Assembly (NCBI GenBank): GCA_030698395.1
Contig: JAUYKW010000025.1
Coordinates: 4,179-68,178 of the forward strand
DNA: 64,000 nucleotides
Direction: 5' to 3'
Origin: a bacterium
GTDB taxonomy: Bacteria > Patescibacteriota > Patescibacteriia > UBA9570
This document shows positions 123 to 58,882 of this stretch, piece after piece; position 1 is the stretch's first letter; each line of letters opens with the position of its first letter. A program made the position numbers and the translations under genes. The notes under the pieces were generated by a model, which searched no databases, was not told the origin of the DNA, and worked only from the letters and a program-made list of their open reading frames with translations.

Positions 123-197
123 CTTTTATTTTTTAATGTTCACTATATAACCGTAGCAACAACAACCCCTTTGTACTCCCTTCCGGCAAGCAAGTAA

Positions 198-247
198 CCT
201 CCGCCAGAGGCGGATCAGCCTTCGGCTGAAACTGAGCTAACCGTCCC
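198..247 (-). repeat. Truncated 5' copy of tRNA-Val (18 nt, to D-loop CAGTT) fused to a 32-nt twin-hairpin element (tcagccgaaggctga + tccgcctctggcgga)
   Basis: The reverse complement of 230-247 equals the first 18 nt of tRNA-Val. Two adjacent 6-bp stem hairpins follow. Downstream sequence resumes tRNA-like 'ggtta..gcttgc'. Confidence 0.8.
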
Positions 248-254
248 TTTTTTG

Positions 255-327
255 TGCTCCTAGATGGAATTGAACCATCGACCCCAGTCTTATAAGGACT
301 GTGCTCTAACCCCTGAGCTATAGGAGC
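255..327 (-). tRNA. tRNA-Ile (anticodon UAU, reads AUA)
   Basis: Cloverleaf: acceptor GCTCCTA/TAGGAGC, anticodon stem CAGTC/GACTG, loop CTTATAA, T-loop TTCAATT. Confidence 0.75.
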
Positions 328-23265: not shown

Positions 23266-23274
23266 GCAAAAATA

Positions 23275-23426
23275 AAAACAAAAGAGAAATACAATTAAAG
23301 CCACTATCGGGGATTGGCGCAGTTTCCGCCAAAGGCGGATCAGCCTATGGCTGAGGCTAGAACCAATGTCTGAATAAAAACAAAAGAGAAATACAATTCA
23401 AGCCACTATCGGGGATTGGCGCAGTT
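23275..23426 (+). repeat. ~50-bp direct repeat (35 nt upstream flank + first 17 nt of tRNA-Pro) flanking a 51-bp insert that begins with the twin-hairpin element in inverted orientation
   Basis: The copies at 23275-23324 and 23376-23426 differ by 1 nt. The insert tccgccaaaggcggatcagcctatggctgagg sits exactly after 'gcgcagtt' of the truncated tRNA-Pro copy. Confidence 0.85.
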
Positions 23427-23483
23427 GGCTAGCGCGCGCCGTTTGGGACGGTGAGGCCCCGGGTTCGAGTCCCGGATCCCCGA
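23410..23483 (+). tRNA. tRNA-Pro (anticodon UGG)
   Basis: Acceptor CGGGGAT/ATCCCCG, anticodon loop TTTGGGA, T-loop TTCGAGT. Confidence 0.85.
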
Positions 23484-25117
23484 CCCTTTAGGAAAGCAGC
23501 TGATTTCTTATGGTCAAGCAAAATATTAAACGGTTCTTTGGCCTGAAAATCCAATACTTTTTTGTTTTTAATAGTAAAGTTCAAGAACATATTTTGGAGT
23601 ATTGTATCTAATAGCTTCATATCTCTAGTTTGAGCAATAATATCAGGCATTTTTTGAAAAAGTTCGAGAAACTCCTTTTGAGAAAAAATAAAACTTTTGG
23701 AATCATTCAAAATATTATTAATTGCATCTAGTCTAATTTCTAGCTCCTCAATTTTTTGAAGAGTAAGTTTATAATCAAGTTTAAAAGCTAGCTTTACTTT
23801 TTCATCTGTTTCATTTAAAAGTAATTGTTTTACTTGGTCTAAACTTTTTCTTTTGATATTCAATTTTTGAACTACGCTAGATTTTTCACTTGTTAACTCC
23901 TGTGCCTTAGCCTTGATTACAGTATTCATCTGATTCAAGTAAATTTTATAATTATGCTTAGTTGCCAGTTTATTTTTCCTAATAAGCTGAATAACAAAAT
24001 CAACAATCACTTTTGCTCTTATAGACTTATTATGAAAATTACATTTCTTGTTTTCACACCTGTAATAATAATATCCTTTCTTAGAGCCATTCTTTAAGTA
24101 TTTATAGGTAATACCTGAAGAAAATGGAAAATTACACACACCACACACAACTCTGCCGCGCAATAAATCTGCGCTTGTATATTTTTTTGACCTAAGTTGT
24201 GATGTAACTTTAAAACCTTTAGTTAGATCACTAATTTTATTGATCCTTAAAAAATCGATAACTGAAACGGCAGGGATAAAATCACATTTATCAGTTAGAT
24301 CAACAATACTATCTGCACCATATATTAAAACTCCCGTATAAAAGGGATCTCTCAATATTTCTGATAAACGTGATTTATTCATTTCATATAACTTACCAAG
24401 ATGTTGGTAACTGTTACTATTAATATAAAGAATGATGTCATTTAATGTTTTGCCATTCAATTTCATTTGAAAGGCTTGTTTGATTAGTACGAAATTATTT
24501 CCATTTGGATGATGAAATTGGGCAGCATCTTTATAATATCCATGCTTAGCCGTATTAATATATTTACCTTCGGCAATACTTCTTTTATTACCACGTTTTA
24601 CATTGTCACTTAATTGATCTGAATATTGTTTGGACAATACAAACGCCATTCCTAATAACATCTTCCCAGAGGCCGTATTTTCGAAGCTAAAGCTCTTAAA
24701 CTTCAAATCACGAATAACTCCCTTATCAAGTAAATCAATCAGCTCACCAGCCTCTTTCATATTGCGTGCTAATCTATCGGGATGCCAGGCAATAATTGCA
24801 TCGTATCTGCCCGCTTTGATGCGATCTACCATCTCTCTGAACTGAGGCCGTATATCCGGATCCTTGGCTGATTCAGACTCTCTATAAACCTTTACAACAT
24901 TTAAGCCCAGCTGCTGAGATAATTCTTCACATTCTGCGACTTGATCTGCCAACGACCGAGCCTGACGCTCTTCTCCTTCAGTAGATTTACGAACATATAA
25001 AATATATTTCAACAAGTCTGCCTCCTGCTGTGGTTCAATTAACATTCTATACAATAAATCGGTAAATTCTTGTGGGGTGCTTATTGAAGCACTTAAGTTG
25101 GATTGTTTATTGCTCAT
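23429..25117 (-). CDS. large serine recombinase (resolvase domain + recombinase domain + zinc ribbon); 3' end overlaps tRNA-Pro
   Basis: YILYVRKSTEGEERQARSLADQ catalytic-Ser motif, DRLARN, C-terminal CGVCNFPF...YYYRCENKKC; 562 aa. Confidence 0.85.
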   Translation of the reverse strand: MSNKQSNLSASISTPQEFTDLLYRMLIEPQQEADLLKYILYVRKSTEGEERQARSLADQVAECEELSQQLGLNVVKVYRESESAKDPDIRPQFREMVDRIKAGRYDAIIAWHPDRLARNMKEAGELIDLLDKGVIRDLKFKSFSFENTASGKMLLGMAFVLSKQYSDQLSDNVKRGNKRSIAEGKYINTAKHGYYKDAAQFHHPNGNNFVLIKQAFQMKLNGKTLNDIILYINSNSYQHLGKLYEMNKSRLSEILRDPFYTGVLIYGADSIVDLTDKCDFIPAVSVIDFLRINKISDLTKGFKVTSQLRSKKYTSADLLRGRVVCGVCNFPFSSGITYKYLKNGSKKGYYYYRCENKKCNFHNKSIRAKVIVDFVIQLIRKNKLATKHNYKIYLNQMNTVIKAKAQELTSEKSSVVQKLNIKRKSLDQVKQLLLNETDEKVKLAFKLDYKLTLQKIEELEIRLDAINNILNDSKSFIFSQKEFLELFQKMPDIIAQTRDMKLLDTILQNMFLNFTIKNKKVLDFQAKEPFNILLDHKKSAAFLKGRGSGTRTRGLTVPNGAR

Positions 25118-37124: not shown

Positions 37125-37388
37125 TTGAGCGTCCACTTAATTACTAATGGACGTTTTATGTTTTATACTTACATTCTACGAAGTCTGATCGATCAACGAA
37201 CTTACGTTGGTCATACAAATAATATTAAAAATAGAGTAAATAGACATAATTCTGTCTTGGTTAAGTCTACTAAAACAAGATGTCCTCTTAAACTAATCTA
37301 TCTAGAACAACATTCTACATTACAAAAAGCTAAACCTCCCGTATTCGACACTCATCTTTGGATATGCAACGGAATAACTCTTTCGTAA
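37125..37388 (+). CDS. GIY-YIG nuclease-domain protein (YhbQ/UPF0213-like), divergent C-terminus
   Basis: FYTYILRS...RTYVGHTNNIKNRVNRHN matches the GIY-YIG core. The likely start is the internal Met at 37158. Confidence 0.65.
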   Translation: MSVHLITNGRFMFYTYILRSLIDQRTYVGHTNNIKNRVNRHNSVLVKSTKTRCPLKLIYLEQHSTLQKAKPPVFDTHLWICNGITLS

Positions 37389-55129: not shown

Positions 55130-55855
55130 TTAACGCCGAGCCTCCCACTCGCCTTTATCAACTTTGTGTAGAATAAATTGGTTGAACCAATTTCGGCCCC
55201 ATTGCCATAATATTTTTGGCCAGCCATCACGATGAATTCTGCGCGCTGACATCTCGATATAATATTTACTAAATACTTGTATTTCACCCTGTTTAGCTAA
55301 GCGCTGAAACAATTCATGATCTTCCGATGTAGCCATAATAGGATTAAACCCTTCGAGCTTCTGAAAAGTTGAACTTCTAATAATTTGACAATCACCAGGT
55401 GCGCCACCAGTTTTTGTAATTCTATTCTGTAAATAAGTCATCATATTAGTAAAACCAAACCAAAATTTATCCCAAAATTTTACATCTTCCGGATATATAG
55501 TAATTGGAATTGTTGCTGCAACAATATTTTTATTATCTTTGAACAAATCTCTAATCTCAAATAATATCTGCTTTATTTTCGGAATTCGTACATCTGCATC
55601 GATAAACCATAAGATATCTCCACTTGCAGCTCGTGCGCCCCTGTTTCGGCACTCACCAATAGTGGATCTTTTATCACTTGGTAAATGTATTACTGCATCT
55701 GCCACCTGATATGCCTTCTCCCTGGTTTTATCTGTACTACCATTATCAGATACGATGATCTCAAAATCATCATCATGCACATCTTTAAATTGTTCAAGTG
55801 CTTGAAGAATGCCTTTCTCTTCATTATATGCTGGAATTATTAATGAAATTTTCAT
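55130..55855 (-). CDS. family 2 glycosyltransferase
   Basis: MKISLIIPAYNEE, SDNGSTD and DADV (DxD) motifs. Confidence 0.85.
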   Translation of the reverse strand: MKISLIIPAYNEEKGILQALEQFKDVHDDDFEIIVSDNGSTDKTREKAYQVADAVIHLPSDKRSTIGECRNRGARAASGDILWFIDADVRIPKIKQILFEIRDLFKDNKNIVAATIPITIYPEDVKFWDKFWFGFTNMMTYLQNRITKTGGAPGDCQIIRSSTFQKLEGFNPIMATSEDHELFQRLAKQGEIQVFSKYYIEMSARRIHRDGWPKILWQWGRNWFNQFILHKVDKGEWEARR

Positions 55856-55961
55856 GAGTGCATTATAGCACTTAATCTTTACAAATACCGTTTATTTTGG
55901 TAAATTTCTAAAACCCATTAAAGTGATTTACCCGTACGATTCACGTATGTGAAACGTTCGT

Positions 55962-56035
55962 GGCCATGTACCCAAATTGGTTAAGGGAGCAGTTTGCAAA
56001 ACTGTTATGTGCAGGTTCGAGTCCTGTCGTGGCCT
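55962..56035 (+). tRNA. tRNA-Cys (anticodon GCA)
   Basis: Acceptor GGCCATG/CGTGGCC, 3-bp D-stem, anticodon loop TTGCAAA, T-loop TTCGAGT. Confidence 0.75.
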
Positions 56036-56187
56036 CAATTGTAATATGTCCGAACAACGGGACAAAATTCAAAACAACATACTCTCCACAACGTCCAGAA
56101 AACATTTACGGAGGCAAATGATACCAGTTAGAAGTAATATAATTTACGATTGACAGGCTAAAATAACTTGGATATTATACCTCCTAC

Positions 56188-56353
56188 GCGGGGATAGCTC
56201 AGTTTCAGCCAAAGGCTGATCCGCCTACGGCGGAGGATAGAGCCCTTACCTACGATAGTCTATTTATAATGCGGGGATAGCTCAGTTTCAGCCAAAGGCT
56301 GATCCGCCTACGGCGGAGGATAGAGCCCTTACCTACGATAGTCTATTTATAAT
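56188..56353 (+). repeat. two tandem 83-bp units, each = first 17 nt of tRNA-Gly(GCC) + 32-nt twin-hairpin element + degenerate D-arm-like tail
   Basis: Units 56188-56270 and 56271-56353 are identical. The insert follows 'gctcagtt' and the tail begins ggatagagc (compare native ggtagagcg). Confidence 0.9.
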
Positions 56354-56429
56354 GCGGGGATAGCTCAGTTGGTAGAGCGTCTGCTTGCCATGCAGAAGGT
56401 CGCGAGTTCGAATCTCGTTTCCCGCTCCA
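56354..56429 (+). tRNA. tRNA-Gly (anticodon GCC), CCA encoded
   Basis: Cloverleaf with anticodon loop TTGCCAT. Confidence 0.9.
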
Positions 56430-56433
56430 AATA

Positions 56434-56470
56434 AAAAAGCGCAGTTCAAAAATGATACTGCGCTTTTTCT
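56434..56470. terminator. bidirectional hairpin terminator (aaagcgcagt..actgcgcttt) flanked by A/T runs
   Basis: Lies between tRNA-Gly (+) and the convergent 800-aa gene (-). Confidence 0.75.
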
Positions 56471-56479
56471 TTAATAGAT

Positions 56480-58882
56480 TTAGCTCGGCCAGTTTTTCAG
56501 TCTAGCTTTTTTATTAACTTTATACTGAATAATTACTTTGCCACCATTCTTAATCTGAACTCTTTTATGCTTTTTCTTTAATTTAAATTTTTTCTTAGTG
56601 AAAGGATCTAAAACTTTAGTATTTCTTTTTGCTAACTTACTCCCTTTCTTCTTTGGAGAAAGCTTTAAAGAAGTTGTTCTTAGTTTGCCGTTTTTCTTCG
56701 TTGTAACTATTACTTCGTTCTTTTTGTTAGTTTTGTAAAAATTAAATACTCCCAGTCTAGATATCTTTTGACCCTTATTCCTTACTTTCTTCGATGATTT
56801 TTGGACACAGTTTGCAGTATTAAATATTCTTACCTTGATGCCATTCTTTTTTAGCACGATTAGTCTATTTCCATCCTTGGATAACTTAGCTTTTGGCTTA
56901 CCTTTTCCTTTCGTAAAAGCTGTACAAGTTAGAGTTGAATCATCTTCGTAAGTAAGCATGACCTTGCTATTCTTCTTAGAAGTTACTTTTGTAACATCTC
57001 CGCGGGATACTACTTCTACATCTCTGGTGGATGTAGCTATATTTCCTGAATCATCTGTGGCTATATAGGTAACTGTATATGTTCCTAGTTTATTAGTATT
57101 TACGTCACTAATGTCTGTTTCTAGGGTTCCGGTTGAGTAACTTGCTATAGCTTTATCAGAATCGCAAGTATCGGTTGCAGTTGCTCCAGCATCAGCATAT
57201 GTTGCGCCTTGCTTTACGGTTACAGAACTGTCTCCTGCCATGGTGATTACTGGATCTTTAGTGTCTGTCACGTTTACTGTGCGGATGGCAGTTCCAATAT
57301 TGCCGTCATTATCTGTTGCAGAGTAAGCTACACTGTAGCTACCTAATATATCGGTATCAACATTATTCGAAATAATTGCTGCACTTATTGTCGAATCAAA
57401 ATTGTCAGTTGCTGTTGCGCCAGAATCTGTATATGTTGAAGTACATTCTTGGATAACTGTGCTATCACCGGTTGCAGTTATAGTTGGATTTGTTTGATCT
57501 AGTTCATAAGCTCCAACGTCACAAGTACTATTCTCTGGTCGAACTAAACCACGTTGATCCCGCGTTTCGGTGCCGCTTAAACTAGAACATGTTCCAGTAT
57601 CTTTAGCAGGTGATGTTGATTGAATAGAGATCGTTTGATTTTCTCCACCATTATTTTCTAATCCCGCTACATCTAAAAGTGGATCCGTACTTGAATGATC
57701 ATTTATCTCCGTAAAACCGCAACTAGTCCCACCTTCAATATTATAATTTTGAGAAGTTATAGTTGGCGTACCAGCACCAGAAATATCACAATCTTCATCC
57801 GCAACGCTATTAGCACTATTCCCAGAAAGAATTGAATTTTTAACTCTCACAGTTGCTAGGTCATTTCCTTCTCCTTGCGCATGAATACCACCACCGCTTC
57901 CTTCAGCAGAATTACCTGAGATAGTACTATGCGATATATCAAATACATCTGCTACTCCAACGCTAGGATGACTACAGTATGAAAGAATGCCCCCACCATT
58001 ACCCGCTATATTATCTGCCGCATTTCCAGTAATAGTCGAATTAATTATAGAATGAGTACTAACCCCACATACACTAGCTATACCTCCACCACCGCCAGCT
58101 GTATTATTGGCGATAGTTGTCTGTTCTATTGAAATGTCTGATTCTCCAGAAATATAAATTGCTCCACCAACATCATCGTTATCAGCTCCACCATTATTTC
58201 CGGTAAATGTACTATCAACAACTGTTAAAGCTGCTGTAGTAACTGCCACTCCCGCACCATCATTAGCTGTATTATCTTTAATTGTTGATCTAGTAATAGT
58301 AACTGTCGCACTAGCATCAACCGAAATTCCACCACCTGCAACATTACTGTTATCTGTAACAATACTGTCAATAACATTCAACACGGTAGTTGCACCGCTA
58401 GCTGCATGTACACCACTTAACACACCTCCAGTTACAGTAATATCTTGAAGGGTAAGGGTGTTGAGAGCAAAAACGTCAAAAACACGATCACCTGTTATTG
58501 CGCCATTACCGTCAATTATAGTTGTTGTAGCACTATCACCTTGAACAGTAATATCACTAGCTGTACCTGATACATCAAGATCACCCGTTGCTGAGTTATC
58601 TTCGCCTATACCCGAAATTTGTAATGTTATTGTATCTGCAGGCACATTAATTGTATGTGTTCCTCCTGCTGTATCAGCTGCAATAAATGCTTCACGCAAT
58701 GAACAATCGTTTCCGCCACCGCCGTCAGCAACACACGATCCATCTGGTGCCGGATCTGCATTAGCATGAGCGCCTAGATCATTATCCGAAACGTTTACTG
58801 TATACGTTGCTGCATGAGCTGGTATCACCCATACACCAAACACCGCTAATGCCGTAATTAGAATTAATTTAGCTTTTTTCAT
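56480..58882 (-). CDS. secreted parallel beta-helix repeat protein with two Ig-like (DUF5011-type) domains and a Lys-rich basic C-terminal tail
   Basis: Signal peptide. Repeated G-rich beta-helix turns (NNTAGGGGGI, GNAADNIAGNGGGI). Two Ig-like repeats (P.IT..GDS.V....G..Y.D.GATATD). K-rich 170-aa tail. Confidence 0.7.
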   Translation of the reverse strand: MKKAKLILITALAVFGVWVIPAHAATYTVNVSDNDLGAHANADPAPDGSCVADGGGGNDCSLREAFIAADTAGGTHTINVPADTITLQISGIGEDNSATGDLDVSGTASDITVQGDSATTTIIDGNGAITGDRVFDVFALNTLTLQDITVTGGVLSGVHAASGATTVLNVIDSIVTDNSNVAGGGISVDASATVTITRSTIKDNTANDGAGVAVTTAALTVVDSTFTGNNGGADNDDVGGAIYISGESDISIEQTTIANNTAGGGGGIASVCGVSTHSIINSTITGNAADNIAGNGGGILSYCSHPSVGVADVFDISHSTISGNSAEGSGGGIHAQGEGNDLATVRVKNSILSGNSANSVADEDCDISGAGTPTITSQNYNIEGGTSCGFTEINDHSSTDPLLDVAGLENNGGENQTISIQSTSPAKDTGTCSSLSGTETRDQRGLVRPENSTCDVGAYELDQTNPTITATGDSTVIQECTSTYTDSGATATDNFDSTISAAIISNNVDTDILGSYSVAYSATDNDGNIGTAIRTVNVTDTKDPVITMAGDSSVTVKQGATYADAGATATDTCDSDKAIASYSTGTLETDISDVNTNKLGTYTVTYIATDDSGNIATSTRDVEVVSRGDVTKVTSKKNSKVMLTYEDDSTLTCTAFTKGKGKPKAKLSKDGNRLIVLKKNGIKVRIFNTANCVQKSSKKVRNKGQKISRLGVFNFYKTNKKNEVIVTTKKNGKLRTTSLKLSPKKKGSKLAKRNTKVLDPFTKKKFKLKKKHKRVQIKNGGKVIIQYKVNKKARLKNWPS

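What the first reader, a model, noticed from the sequence alone, without database searches (positions are those of the whole stretch)
56188..56429. Tandem 83-bp repeat = [tRNA-Gly 5' 17 nt + twin hairpin + degenerate D-arm tail] x2 immediately upstream of intact tRNA-Gly(GCC)
Two identical units precede the functional tRNA. Each unit reads like a tRNA-Gly pseudogene copy broken at the D-loop by the 32-nt element and truncated after ggatagagccc. Tandem amplification of the insert-bearing unit suggests repeated insertion/duplication activity, or a rolling, replication-associated mechanism as with REP/IS200-like elements.
Basis: seen in the sequence. Interest (0 to 1): 0.7.

Follow-up and report, generated by a model that had tools for sequence, protein, structure and literature searches.

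The report
Nuclease-element scar in tRNA-Gly gene
The two 83-bp repeats in front of tRNA-Gly are most likely gene-less leftovers of a small selfish DNA element (a 30-nt double hairpin that elsewhere travels with a tiny GIY-YIG nuclease gene) which breaks into tRNA genes of Patescibacteria at the sequence CAGTT|GG while leaving a working tRNA copy beside the broken piece.

Summary
In detail: 56188-56370 is an 83-bp tandem repeat (2.2 copies, 100% identical). Each unit is the first 17 nt of tRNA-Gly(GCC), a 30-nt twin hairpin, GGATAGAGC (rest of the D-arm) and 27 nt of filler, followed by the intact tRNA.

It is not unique to this locus. The same architecture precedes tRNA-Val(GAC) and tRNA-Pro(TGG) in this window. 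These three are exactly the 3 of 8 tRNAs whose D-loop reads CAGTTGG.

Metagenome and genome scans returned the 120-locus maximum of such junctions, including tandem arrays of up to five units. In the full-size version an 81-97-aa GIY-YIG nuclease ORF sits between the twin hairpin and the intact tRNA. Six homologues chosen by protein sequence alone all show this layout, two with the same gene order as the window's Val and Pro sites.

Relatives with conserved synteny have an empty tRNA-Gly site. Their promoter matches the one upstream of unit 1.

Best reading: an ORF-less relic or non-autonomous form of a tRNA-invading GIY-YIG/twin-hairpin element, later duplicated by recombination or slippage. 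The nuclease mechanism is inferred from SegB and Ssn precedents, not shown. Copy number is not verified by reads.

The parts
56150..56178 (+). sigma-70-type promoter TTGACA-17-TATTAT, ending 9 nt before unit 1. It is the ancestral tRNA-Gly promoter.
   Evidence: 11/12 consensus match. It aligns with the promoter directly upstream of intact tRNA-Gly in relative L271.
56188..56204 (+). Unit 1: displaced tRNA-Gly 5' fragment (positions 1-17, ending CAGTT). This is the ancestral 5' end of the gene.
   Evidence: 17/17 identical to 56354-56370. Promoter orthology.
56205..56234 (.). Twin hairpin copy 1 (TCAGCCAAAGGCTGA + TCCGCCTACGGCGGA)
56235..56270 (+). Unit 1 tail: GGATAGAGC (D-loop/D-stem remainder, one extra base relative to the tRNA) plus 27 nt of AT-rich filler ending in TATAAT
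   Evidence: Inner homology arms of 2-14 nt are typical of this class.
56271..56353 (+). Unit 2: exact copy of unit 1 (5' fragment 56271-56287, twin hairpin 56288-56317, tail 56318-56353)
   Evidence: 100% identity
56354..56429 (+). Intact tRNA-Gly(GCC), D-loop CAGTTGG
   Evidence: ARAGORN; Rfam tRNA 71 bits
56434..56468 (.). Perfect 12-bp hairpin flanked by an A-run and a T-run (AAAAAGCGCAGT...ACTGCGCTTTTT). Probably a bidirectional terminator for tRNA-Gly and the convergent 800-aa gene.
   Evidence: inverted repeat I13; read from the sequence. The simple terminator scan did not flag it.
23271..23372 (+). Second site: 54-nt duplicate of the tRNA-Pro upstream flank plus positions 1-17 (23271-23324), twin hairpin in the opposite hairpin order (23325-23354), then GGCTAG and 12 nt of filler, upstream of intact tRNA-Pro(TGG) at 23409-23486
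   Evidence: Same gene order with a GIY-YIG ORF present in L262.
123..247 (-). Third site: tRNA-Val 5' fragment (247-230), twin hairpin (229-200), then GGTTA and about 72 nt of filler, upstream of intact tRNA-Val(GAC) at 122-48
   Evidence: Same gene order with a GIY-YIG ORF present in L266.
37125..37388 (+). The window's only GIY-YIG ORF (87 aa). N-terminal motifs are present and the C-terminal RE..LKSG.GR segment is missing, so it is probably decayed. No twin hairpin or tRNA lies next to it. Candidate remnant of the nuclease partner.
   Evidence: HMM hit E = 2e-14; sequence and translation

Best explanation
The array is the ORF-less footprint of a selfish element that invades tRNA genes in Patescibacteria.

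Anatomy of the full element: a 30-nt twin hairpin plus an 81-97-aa single-domain GIY-YIG nuclease gene. It sits inside a tRNA gene at the sequence CAGTT|GG, usually D-loop positions 17|18. A duplicate of the tRNA end on one side of the cassette keeps an intact, co-transcribed tRNA. The original end is left behind as a displaced fragment capped by the twin hairpin.

At this locus: the ancestral arrangement was promoter followed directly by tRNA-Gly. An 83-nt block (twin hairpin + GGATAGAGC + 27-nt filler + a new copy of positions 1-17) came to lie between positions 17 and 18.

The block was then duplicated once. This most likely happened by unequal recombination or slipped-strand mispairing between the repeats, perhaps triggered by nuclease breaks as in SegB-driven amplification. 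The two units are now transcribed as a 166-nt leader and removed by 5' processing of the tRNA.

What is shown: the architecture, its recurrence at three window tRNAs, the target motif, the link with GIY-YIG ORFs, and the empty sites in relatives.

What is inferred: the GIY-YIG protein recognises the twin hairpin (probably as single-stranded DNA, as Ssn nucleases do) and/or cuts CAGTT|GG; host recombination then copies the element; short forms are either mobilised in trans or are relics.
For: (1) The same architecture occurs at Val-GAC, Pro-TGG and Gly-GCC in the window. These are exactly the 3 of 8 tRNAs whose D-loop reads CAGTTGG, which is 1 in 56 by chance.

(2) The metagenome scan for AGTT+twin+GG returned the 120-stretch maximum. 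Of 114 unique neighbourhoods, 86 have a tRNA within 500 nt. In 34 the flank is >=85% identical to the first 16-19 nt of a tRNA, and all 34 of those tRNAs lie downstream.

(3) The outer homology arm is 16-21 nt in most loci, so it starts at tRNA +1. The inner arm is 2-14 nt. Filler length is bimodal, 12-70 nt or 250-290 nt.

(4) The long fillers encode GIY-YIG proteins (PF01541, E = 1e-12 to 1e-16). The ORF is always co-oriented with an intact tRNA and lies -7 to +30 nt from it, with the twin hairpin on its far side. Both mirror orientations occur, with displaced 5' or 3' fragments.

(5) Test independent of the hairpin: six homologues chosen by protein sequence alone (8 loci) all show ORF + tRNA + twin hairpin. 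L262 and L266 have the gene orders of the window's Pro and Val sites.

(6) Empty sites: L271, L269 and L268 have promoter followed directly by tRNA-Gly. The window's promoter upstream of unit 1 is orthologous to L271's.

(7) Hairpin stems covary: C-G 187, A-T 63, T-A 10, G-C 4, against about 18 non-Watson-Crick combinations (7 of them T-G). Outer pairs covary too, e.g. CCAGCC..GGCTGG.

(8) Tandem arrays of such units occur elsewhere: L188 with 5 units, L195 with 3, and L228, L204, L221 with 2 each.

(9) Precedents: Ssn nucleases are 94-aa GIY-YIG proteins that bind a hairpin repeat in ssDNA and cut beside it (PMC11893778). SegB is a GIY-YIG nuclease that cuts inside tRNA genes and, with recombination, drives tandem amplification (PMC2330249, PMC13096335).
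Against: No nuclease ORF lies at any of the three window sites, and the window's only GIY-YIG ORF looks decayed.

In the unbiased genome scan only about 4% of twin hairpins had a GIY-YIG ORF within 150 nt, and most were not at tRNAs. The hairpin therefore has a life beyond this cassette.

The intact tRNA still contains CAGTTGG, so a simple homing model does not explain how the host copy escapes cutting.

The window's Pro site has a 54-nt repeat that includes upstream flank. That looks like a plain tandem duplication rather than a derivative of an ORF-bearing cassette.

No cleavage or binding data exist for these proteins, and their assignment to the Ssn family (cd10448) could not be tested. 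The copy number of two is unverified.
Confidence: 0.72

Rival explanations
1. A nuclease-independent palindromic element. The twin hairpin is a REP/MITE-like or mitochondrial double-hairpin-like element that spreads on its own, for example by template switching at stalled replication forks or by ectopic gene conversion between the conserved D-arm sequences of different tRNA genes. Insertions in essential tRNAs survive only when a partial tandem duplication accompanies them. GIY-YIG genes are separate occupants of the same tRNA hot spots.
For: About 96% of twin hairpins in the unbiased scan have no GIY-YIG ORF nearby, and many lie in non-tRNA contexts with TTT|...|AAA flanks. The window's Pro site looks like a simple 54-nt tandem duplication. 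Flanking direct repeats are enriched but seen at only a minority of elements (>=12 nt: 5.3% vs 0.6% at control positions). The arms AGCTCAGTT and GGTTAGAGC are shared by many tRNAs, which would allow ectopic conversion.
Against: In the unbiased set, 5 of 8 GIY-YIG ORFs lie within 150 nt of a twin hairpin, against about 4% expected by position. All 8 protein-selected loci have a twin hairpin next to the ORF. The fixed order (fragment, twin, ORF, tRNA, and its mirror) is hard to get from independent insertions.
Confidence: 0.17
2. A functional RNA leader. The 5' fragment plus twin hairpin is kept because, within the pre-tRNA, it regulates tRNA-Gly folding, processing or stability. It could, for example, compete for the 3' acceptor strand or act as a protective 5' structure.
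For: The units lie between the promoter and the tRNA, so they are transcribed. The 17-nt fragments are often 100% identical to the cognate tRNA (21 of 34 loci). The hairpin stems covary.
Against: The element is strand-symmetric (near-palindromic) and occurs in either hairpin order. It occurs upstream or downstream of tRNAs, in T-loops, anticodon loops and anticodon stems, and far from tRNAs. Relatives lack it at the same tRNA. Displaced fragments decay to varying degrees. There is no Rfam match.
Confidence: 0.05
3. Assembly artefact. The second unit, or the whole array, is an assembler expansion of a repeat. The true locus has one unit.
For: The units are 100% identical. Independent short-read contigs break inside twin hairpins. 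The source is a MAG.
Against: Comparable arrays with diverged units (L188, about 95% identity, 5 units) and 2-3-unit arrays occur in independent assemblies. An artefact would affect only the count, not the existence or nature of the unit, which is seen three times in the window.
Confidence: 0.06

Closest known systems
Phage T4/T6 SegB, a free-standing GIY-YIG homing endonuclease in tRNA gene clusters (PMC2330249; PMC13096335)
   Same: A GIY-YIG nuclease gene embedded among tRNA genes. It cuts inside the tRNA genes at conserved loop sequence (motif RAWTSGAAC). Nuclease activity plus homologous recombination gives unstable tandem segmental amplification of the tRNA region. segB genes co-localise widely with tRNAs.
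   Different: SegB is a longer protein whose C-terminal part is needed for its toxicity when overexpressed (PMC13096335); from my own knowledge it is about 220 aa with a DNA-binding region. It is phage-encoded and lies between tRNA genes rather than inside one. No hairpin repeat or regenerating tRNA-end duplicate is reported for it. Here the ORFs are 81-97 aa, chromosomal in Patescibacteria, and always paired with a twin hairpin and a displaced tRNA fragment.
Ssn nucleases and their SRM/NTS hairpin repeats (cd10448; Chenal et al. 2025, PMC11893778)
   Same: A single-domain GIY-YIG protein of about 94 aa (catalytic Y6, Y17, E64; the ORF from locus L230 has Y5, Y16, E63). The gene is flanked by a GC-rich hairpin repeat with a 3-nt loop, and the repeat is dispersed in many copies. 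The authors note the IS-like layout repeat-gene-repeat.
   Different: The SRM is a single 9-bp hairpin with a different sequence (CGTCATTCCCGCGMAVGCGGGAATCYRG) and is orientation-specific. The paper does not mention tRNA at all. Here the repeat is a double 6-bp hairpin, nearly palindromic, inserted in tRNA genes together with gene-end duplication. Family membership of these ORFs was not tested.
Mobile endonuclease ORFs that carry a piece of the target gene, and double-hairpin elements (DHE) in Allomyces and other mitochondria (Paquin et al. 1994, 2000, from my own knowledge; DHEs are also cited in PMC2800124)
   Same: A GIY-YIG ORF inserted into a gene together with a replacement copy of the gene's end, leaving the original end as a displaced fragment. 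G+C-rich double-hairpin elements of 26-79 nt are scattered in an A+T-rich genome.
   Different: These are in organelle genomes and target protein-coding or rRNA genes. No sequence relationship was tested. A link between DHEs and the endonuclease was not established there.
REP elements with RAYT (IS200/IS605-like Y1 transposases) (PMC3733652)
   Same: Short GC-rich extragenic palindromes in many copies, associated with a dedicated nuclease that acts on hairpins.
   Different: REPs carry a GTAG or CGTC tag and pair with HUH/Y1 transposases. Neither is present here. REPs are not known for generating tRNA-end duplications.

Membership tests
Free-standing GIY-YIG homing-endonuclease cassette (SegB-like) | A GIY-YIG nuclease ORF within the inserted segment | tested here: not met
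   No ORF lies in the 83-nt units or at the Val and Pro sites. An ORF is present in the long forms elsewhere. The window loci are therefore ORF-less derivatives, not autonomous members.
Free-standing GIY-YIG homing-endonuclease cassette (SegB-like) | Presence/absence polymorphism at the same site in related genomes (filled and empty alleles) | tested here: met
   L271, L269 and L268 have tRNA-Gly(GCC) directly after the promoter. L262 and L266 have ORF-bearing versions of the window's Pro and Val sites.
Free-standing GIY-YIG homing-endonuclease cassette (SegB-like) | Site-specific cleavage of the empty allele by the encoded enzyme | not testable with these tools
   Only indirect evidence: insertion always at CAGTT|GG, including in the anticodon stem of tRNA-Asn, and 3 of 3 CAGTTGG tRNAs occupied in the window.
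Free-standing GIY-YIG homing-endonuclease cassette (SegB-like) | Insertion destroys the recognition site, making the host allele immune | tested here: not met
   The regenerated tRNA keeps CAGTTGG. This departs from classical homing.
Ssn / SRM system (cd10448) | A single-domain GIY-YIG protein of about 90-100 aa | tested here: met
   81-97 aa, with PF01541 covering nearly the whole protein. This applies to ORFs at related loci. The window's own ORF is truncated or decayed.
Ssn / SRM system (cd10448) | Gene flanked by a hairpin-forming repeat that is also dispersed in the genome | tested here: met
   8 of 8 protein-selected loci have a twin hairpin within about 100 nt. The window has 4 copies in 64 kb. 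Genome and metagenome scans each returned the 120-locus maximum.
Ssn / SRM system (cd10448) | The repeat matches the SRM/NTS consensus | tested here: not met
   The twin is TCNGCCnnnGGCNGA x2, whereas the NTS is CGTCATTCCCGCGMAVGCGGGAATCYRG. The sequence differs, and it is double rather than single.
Ssn / SRM system (cd10448) | ssDNA-specific binding of the hairpin with cleavage a few nt upstream; CDD cd10448 assignment | not testable with these tools
   No CDD library or SsnA sequence was available. The nearest solved structures are UPF0213 proteins 1ywl and 1zg2, at E = 7e-6 and 7e-4.
REP / RAYT | GTAG or CGTC tetranucleotide tag next to the palindrome | tested here: not met
   Flanks are CAGTT|..|GG at tRNAs and mostly TTT|..|AAA elsewhere.
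REP / RAYT | An associated Y1 (HUH) transposase gene | not tested
   Only ten window ORFs were scanned against Pfam. None was a transposase. The whole genome is not available.
Integrase-mediated att duplication at a tRNA gene | An integrase-bearing island between direct repeats of the tRNA 3' end | tested here: not met
   The repeats are of the 5' end, 66 nt apart, with no ORF between them. The neighbours are a glycosyltransferase and a surface protein.
Rfam RNA families | A covariance-model match over the unit | tested here: not met
   Only the two tRNAs and weak terminator-driven hits were found at E <= 10.

The most novel reading that the evidence does not exclude
Patescibacteria and some other uncultured lineages carry a previously undescribed class of selfish element: a minimal, Ssn-like GIY-YIG nuclease whose recognition motif is the twin hairpin. 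It homes into the near-universal tRNA sequence CAGTT|GG, carries its own replacement tRNA end so the host gene survives, is expressed from the tRNA promoter, and leaves twin-hairpin-capped tRNA fragments and tandem arrays as scars. The dispersed twin hairpins, including in-frame 30-nt insertions in coding genes, would be its non-autonomous offspring.
Probability: 0.4. Interest if true: 0.75.

Novelty: new variant of a known kind. Interest (0 to 1): 0.62.

Why it matters
If the model holds, there are four consequences.

1. It explains a recurrent oddity of CPR genomes: broken tRNA pieces and short tandem arrays next to tRNA genes. These break short-read assemblies and can confuse tRNA annotation.

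2. It links two recent lines of work, hairpin-guided Ssn nucleases and SegB-driven tRNA-locus amplification, in one chromosomal system.

3. It shows how a mobile element can exploit an essential, highly conserved target by carrying a replacement gene end.

4. It points to very small (about 80-aa) nucleases with a defined DNA motif, which could be useful as tools.

For this window alone, the practical message is that the repeat is a non-coding scar and not a new gene.

Tried and rejected
- Rfam at E <= 10 over 55800-56600 gave nothing on the units. A weak L20-leader hit is only the terminator hairpin.
- A hammerhead or other ribozyme reading of the hairpins was considered by eye and dropped, because the core motifs are absent.
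- A universal target-site duplication was rejected: most twin hairpins have no long flanking repeat.
- A strictly intergenic element was rejected: about half of the copies are spanned by frames of >=600 nt.
- Random decay of the ORF as the origin of short forms is unlikely, because filler lengths are bimodal with almost nothing between 75 and 245 nt.
- An integrase att-site duplication was rejected: it is the 5' end that is repeated, the spacing is 66 nt, and there is no integrase.
- Independent copy-number evidence was sought, but the Logan contigs stop inside the hairpins.
- Global MAFFT alignments of short against long forms (A1, A2) misplaced the hairpin against the ORF interior and were not used.
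- Eight literature searches found no description of a GIY-YIG/twin-hairpin cassette in bacterial tRNA genes. The Patescibacteria tRNA-intron paper (PMC13011429) does not mention it.

Full report
**Observation.** Tandem Repeats Finder reports an 83-bp period, 2.2 copies and 100% identity at 56188-56370. ARAGORN and Rfam call an intact tRNA-Gly(GCC) at 56354-56429. Each unit reads as follows:
- GCGGGGATAGCTCAGTT, which is tRNA positions 1-17
- TCAGCCAAAGGCTGA and TCCGCCTACGGCGGA, two hairpins with 6-bp stems and 3-nt loops
- GGATAGAGC, where the tRNA has GG-TAGAGC
- 27 nt unrelated to the tRNA

The insert is 30 nt, not 32. As single-stranded DNA it folds into the two hairpins at -11.3 kcal/mol, z = -4.55, with 0 of 200 shuffles folding as well.

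**The same thing at two other tRNAs in the window.** The twin hairpin recurs at 200-229 and 23325-23354, against 0 matches in 100 shuffles. Every exact match to the single-hairpin consensus lies in these sites. Reading them gives the same plan:
- The first 18 nt of tRNA-Val(GAC), the twin hairpin, GGTTA, about 72 nt, then intact tRNA-Val.
- A 54-nt duplicate (37 nt of upstream flank plus tRNA-Pro positions 1-17), the twin hairpin in the opposite hairpin order, GGCTAG, 12 nt, then intact tRNA-Pro(TGG).

No other window tRNA has a partial duplicate. The three occupied tRNAs are exactly those whose D-loop reads CAGTTGG. The other five read CAGGGG, CAGGTGG, CAGTGG, ATAATGG and AAATTGG. That match is 1 in 56 by chance.

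**Organism.** The window is a bacterial chromosome with FtsH, GyrA, SMC, HisF and PEP carboxylase, at about 36% GC. Its GyrA is 100% identical to a protein on a 141-kb NCBI MAG contig. Named relatives, at 76% identity or less, are Patescibacteria, Kerfeldbacteria and Komeilibacteria.

**The twin hairpin is a dispersed element.** A pattern with no tRNA flanks (TCNGCCNNNGGCNGA twice) returned the 120-stretch maximum in representative genomes, plus 16 viral contigs. The lineages include many Patescibacteria as well as Ignavibacteria, Kiritimatiellae, Omnitrophota and others. Features of these copies:
- The free stem position covaries: C-G 187, A-T 63, T-A 10, G-C 4, with about 18 non-Watson-Crick combinations, 7 of them T-G.
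- The first loop is purine-rich and the second pyrimidine-rich. 12 of 141 copies are perfect 30-nt palindromes.
- Flanks favour TTT|...|AAA.
- About half of the copies are spanned by open frames of at least 600 nt. The element is depleted from coding sequence but not excluded from it, and 30 nt keeps the reading frame.
- Long flanking direct repeats are enriched (12 nt or more: 5.3% against 0.6% at control positions) but occur at only a minority of copies.
- 9 of 141 copies lie within 200 nt of a tRNA. Those nine show either the window's plan or its mirror image, which is intact tRNA, spacer, a few nt of homology, twin hairpin in the T-loop at GGTT|C, then a 3' fragment running to CCA. One locus has insertions in both the D-loop and the anticodon loop.

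**The tRNA junction is common.** Scanning metagenomes for AGTT + twin + GG again returned the 120-stretch maximum.
- Of 114 unique neighbourhoods, 86 have a tRNA within 500 nt. In 34 the flank is at least 85% identical to the first 16-19 nt of a tRNA, and 21 of those are perfect. All 34 tRNAs lie downstream. They include Val, Met, Pro, Ile, Asp, Arg, Ala, Asn and Thr.
- The mirror class has the intact tRNA upstream and a long 3' arm after the hairpin.
- The outer homology arm is 16-21 nt in most loci, so it begins at tRNA +1. The inner arm is 2-14 nt.
- The filler between the inner arm and the intact tRNA falls into two classes, 12-70 nt or 250-290 nt.

**The long fillers encode a nuclease.** The 250-290-nt fillers align with one another. 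Each holds an 81-97-aa ORF on the tRNA strand that matches the Pfam GIY-YIG domain over nearly its whole length, with E = 1e-12 to 1e-16. A profile built from these ORFs finds 39 GIY-YIG ORFs across the fetched loci. Each ORF is co-oriented with an intact tRNA and lies -7 to +30 nt from it, with the twin hairpin on its far side. The arrangements are:
- twin hairpin, ORF, tRNA (13 loci)
- tRNA, ORF, twin hairpin
- twin hairpin, tRNA, ORF, in which a displaced 3' tRNA fragment follows the ORF
- twin hairpin, ORF, twin hairpin (two loci)

In the unbiased genome set, 5 of 8 GIY-YIG ORFs lie within 150 nt of a twin hairpin. Conversely, only about 4% of twin hairpins have such an ORF nearby.

**A test independent of the hairpin.** Homologues of one ORF number 64 proteins of 53-133 aa (most 80-116 aa). 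The named ones come from Patescibacteria and Paceibacterota MAGs. Six were chosen only because they lie on long contigs (8 loci). All six show an ORF abutting or overlapping an intact tRNA, plus a twin hairpin in a displaced tRNA fragment.
- L262 reads Ile(GAT), Phe, [pseudo-Pro + twin], ORF, Pro(TGG). This is the gene order of the window's Pro site.
- L266 reads Ile(TAT), [pseudo-Val + twin], ORF, Val(GAC). This is the gene order of the window's Val site.
- The hairpins in these loci show compensatory changes at the outer pairs (CCAGCC..GGCTGG, CCCGCC..GGCGGG, TTCGCC..GGCGAA).
- In tRNA-Asn loci the insertion lies at GCAGTT|GGCT in the anticodon stem. The target is therefore the sequence CAGTT|GG, not the D-loop position as such.

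**Empty sites at this locus.** Relatives keep the order glycosyltransferase, tRNA-Cys, tRNA-Gly(GCC). In L271, L269 and L268 the tRNA-Gly gene follows its promoter directly, with no hairpin and no pseudo-unit.
- The window's near-consensus promoter (TTGACA-17-TATTAT, 11/12, ending 9 nt before unit 1) aligns with L271's promoter.
- The sequence directly upstream of the window's intact tRNA does not align with it.
- Unit 1 therefore holds the ancestral 5' end of the gene. The 2 x 83 nt lie between ancestral positions 17 and 18.
- L271 has CAGTTGG and is unoccupied. L269 and L268 have CAGCTGG.

**Arrays elsewhere.** L188 has five 110-nt units at about 95% identity. Each unit is a pseudo-tRNA with the twin hairpin in the D-loop and a palindrome in place of the anticodon arm, cut off at the T-loop GGTTC. 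The contig ends inside the array. L195 has three pseudo-Thr units upstream of tRNA-Thr and a GIY-YIG ORF. L228, L204, L221 and L236 each have two twin-hairpin junctions.

**Mechanism.**

Shown: the cassette anatomy, the target motif, the presence/absence polymorphism, the association with the ORF, and the tendency to form arrays.

Inferred from precedent:
- Ssn proteins are 94-aa single-domain GIY-YIG nucleases. They bind a GC-rich hairpin repeat only as ssDNA and cut a few nt upstream. Their genes are flanked by the repeat (PMC11893778). That paper never mentions tRNA.
- SegB is a GIY-YIG nuclease encoded among phage tRNA genes. It cuts inside those genes and, together with recombination proteins, drives unstable tandem amplification of the locus (PMC2330249; PMC13096335).

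My proposal is that the small nuclease uses the twin hairpin and/or CAGTT|GG to make breaks. Host recombination then copies the hairpin, with or without the ORF, and only products that keep an intact tRNA survive. Repeats of 17-83 nt then expand by unequal exchange or slippage.

Open problems:
- The regenerated tRNA still carries the target sequence.
- Most twin hairpins are not next to a nuclease gene.
- The window's Pro site looks like a plain tandem duplication.
- The window's only GIY-YIG ORF (37125-37388) lacks the C-terminal catalytic segment.

**Verdict.** The finding is real. It is best read as an ORF-less scar, or a non-autonomous copy, of a tRNA-invading GIY-YIG/twin-hairpin element, duplicated once. 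I found no description of this combination in the searchable literature. It is a new variant of known kinds (free-standing GIY-YIG endonuclease cassettes; hairpin-repeat-associated Ssn nucleases), not a new category. The copy number and the enzymology remain to be tested.

Noticed in passing
window 254-327 (-): There is a tRNA-Ile with anticodon TAT. Most bacteria read AUA with a lysidine-modified CAT tRNA. The same Ile(TAT)-Val(GAC) pairing is seen in relative L266.
   Followed up: no
window 37125-37388 (+): A lone 87-aa GIY-YIG ORF with intact N-terminal motifs but no C-terminal RE..LKSG.GR segment. It is preceded by a hairpin (GTCCAC..GTGGAC-like) and is not next to a tRNA or a twin hairpin. 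It is possibly a decayed copy of the element's nuclease.
   Followed up: partly
L260 1370-2150 and L261: A 116-aa GIY-YIG ORF sits in an Asn-like tRNA gene so disrupted that ARAGORN finds no tRNA. The locus has two different twin hairpins and a long structured-looking stretch before the tRNA 3' end, which could be a group I intron. Introns in Patescibacteria tRNA-Asn genes are reported in PMC13011429.
   Followed up: no
L188, L242, L175, L240 (displaced tRNA copies): In displaced tRNA fragments the anticodon arm is often replaced by a perfect short-loop palindrome. In L240 it is a single hairpin of the twin family (TCCGCCTTTGGCGGA). The hairpins seem to replace tRNA arms as well as insert into loops.
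   Followed up: partly
L001-L136 (genome and viral hits): About half of the twin hairpins lie inside long open frames. The element is 30 nt, so it would add 10 codons in frame (for example SAxGGSAxGG), like Rickettsia palindromic elements. Many other copies sit in runs of 6-8-nt tandem repeats such as GAAAGT or GGAAATT.
   Followed up: no
L137 (starts at about window 222) and L138 (ends at about window 56217): Logan short-read contigs of the same sample end inside twin hairpins. These elements fragment short-read assemblies at tRNA loci.
   Followed up: yes
literature, PMC1564403: The 2006 GIY-YIG survey reports prokaryotic Slx1-like GIY-YIG domains fused to a TrmH-like methyltransferase, the enzyme that modifies tRNA G18. 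G18 is the base next to the insertion point 17|18 seen here. This may be coincidence.
   Followed up: no
window 23429-25117 (-): The mechanical 562-aa ORF overlaps the 3' part of tRNA-Pro (23409-23486) by about 58 nt. The true start codon is probably further downstream.
   Followed up: no
L259 1300-1420: Upstream of the pseudo-Asn fragment lies the 3' end of another GIY-YIG-like reading frame (..KYFKTGFGRAFLK..). Cassettes can therefore be nested or arranged in tandem.
   Followed up: no
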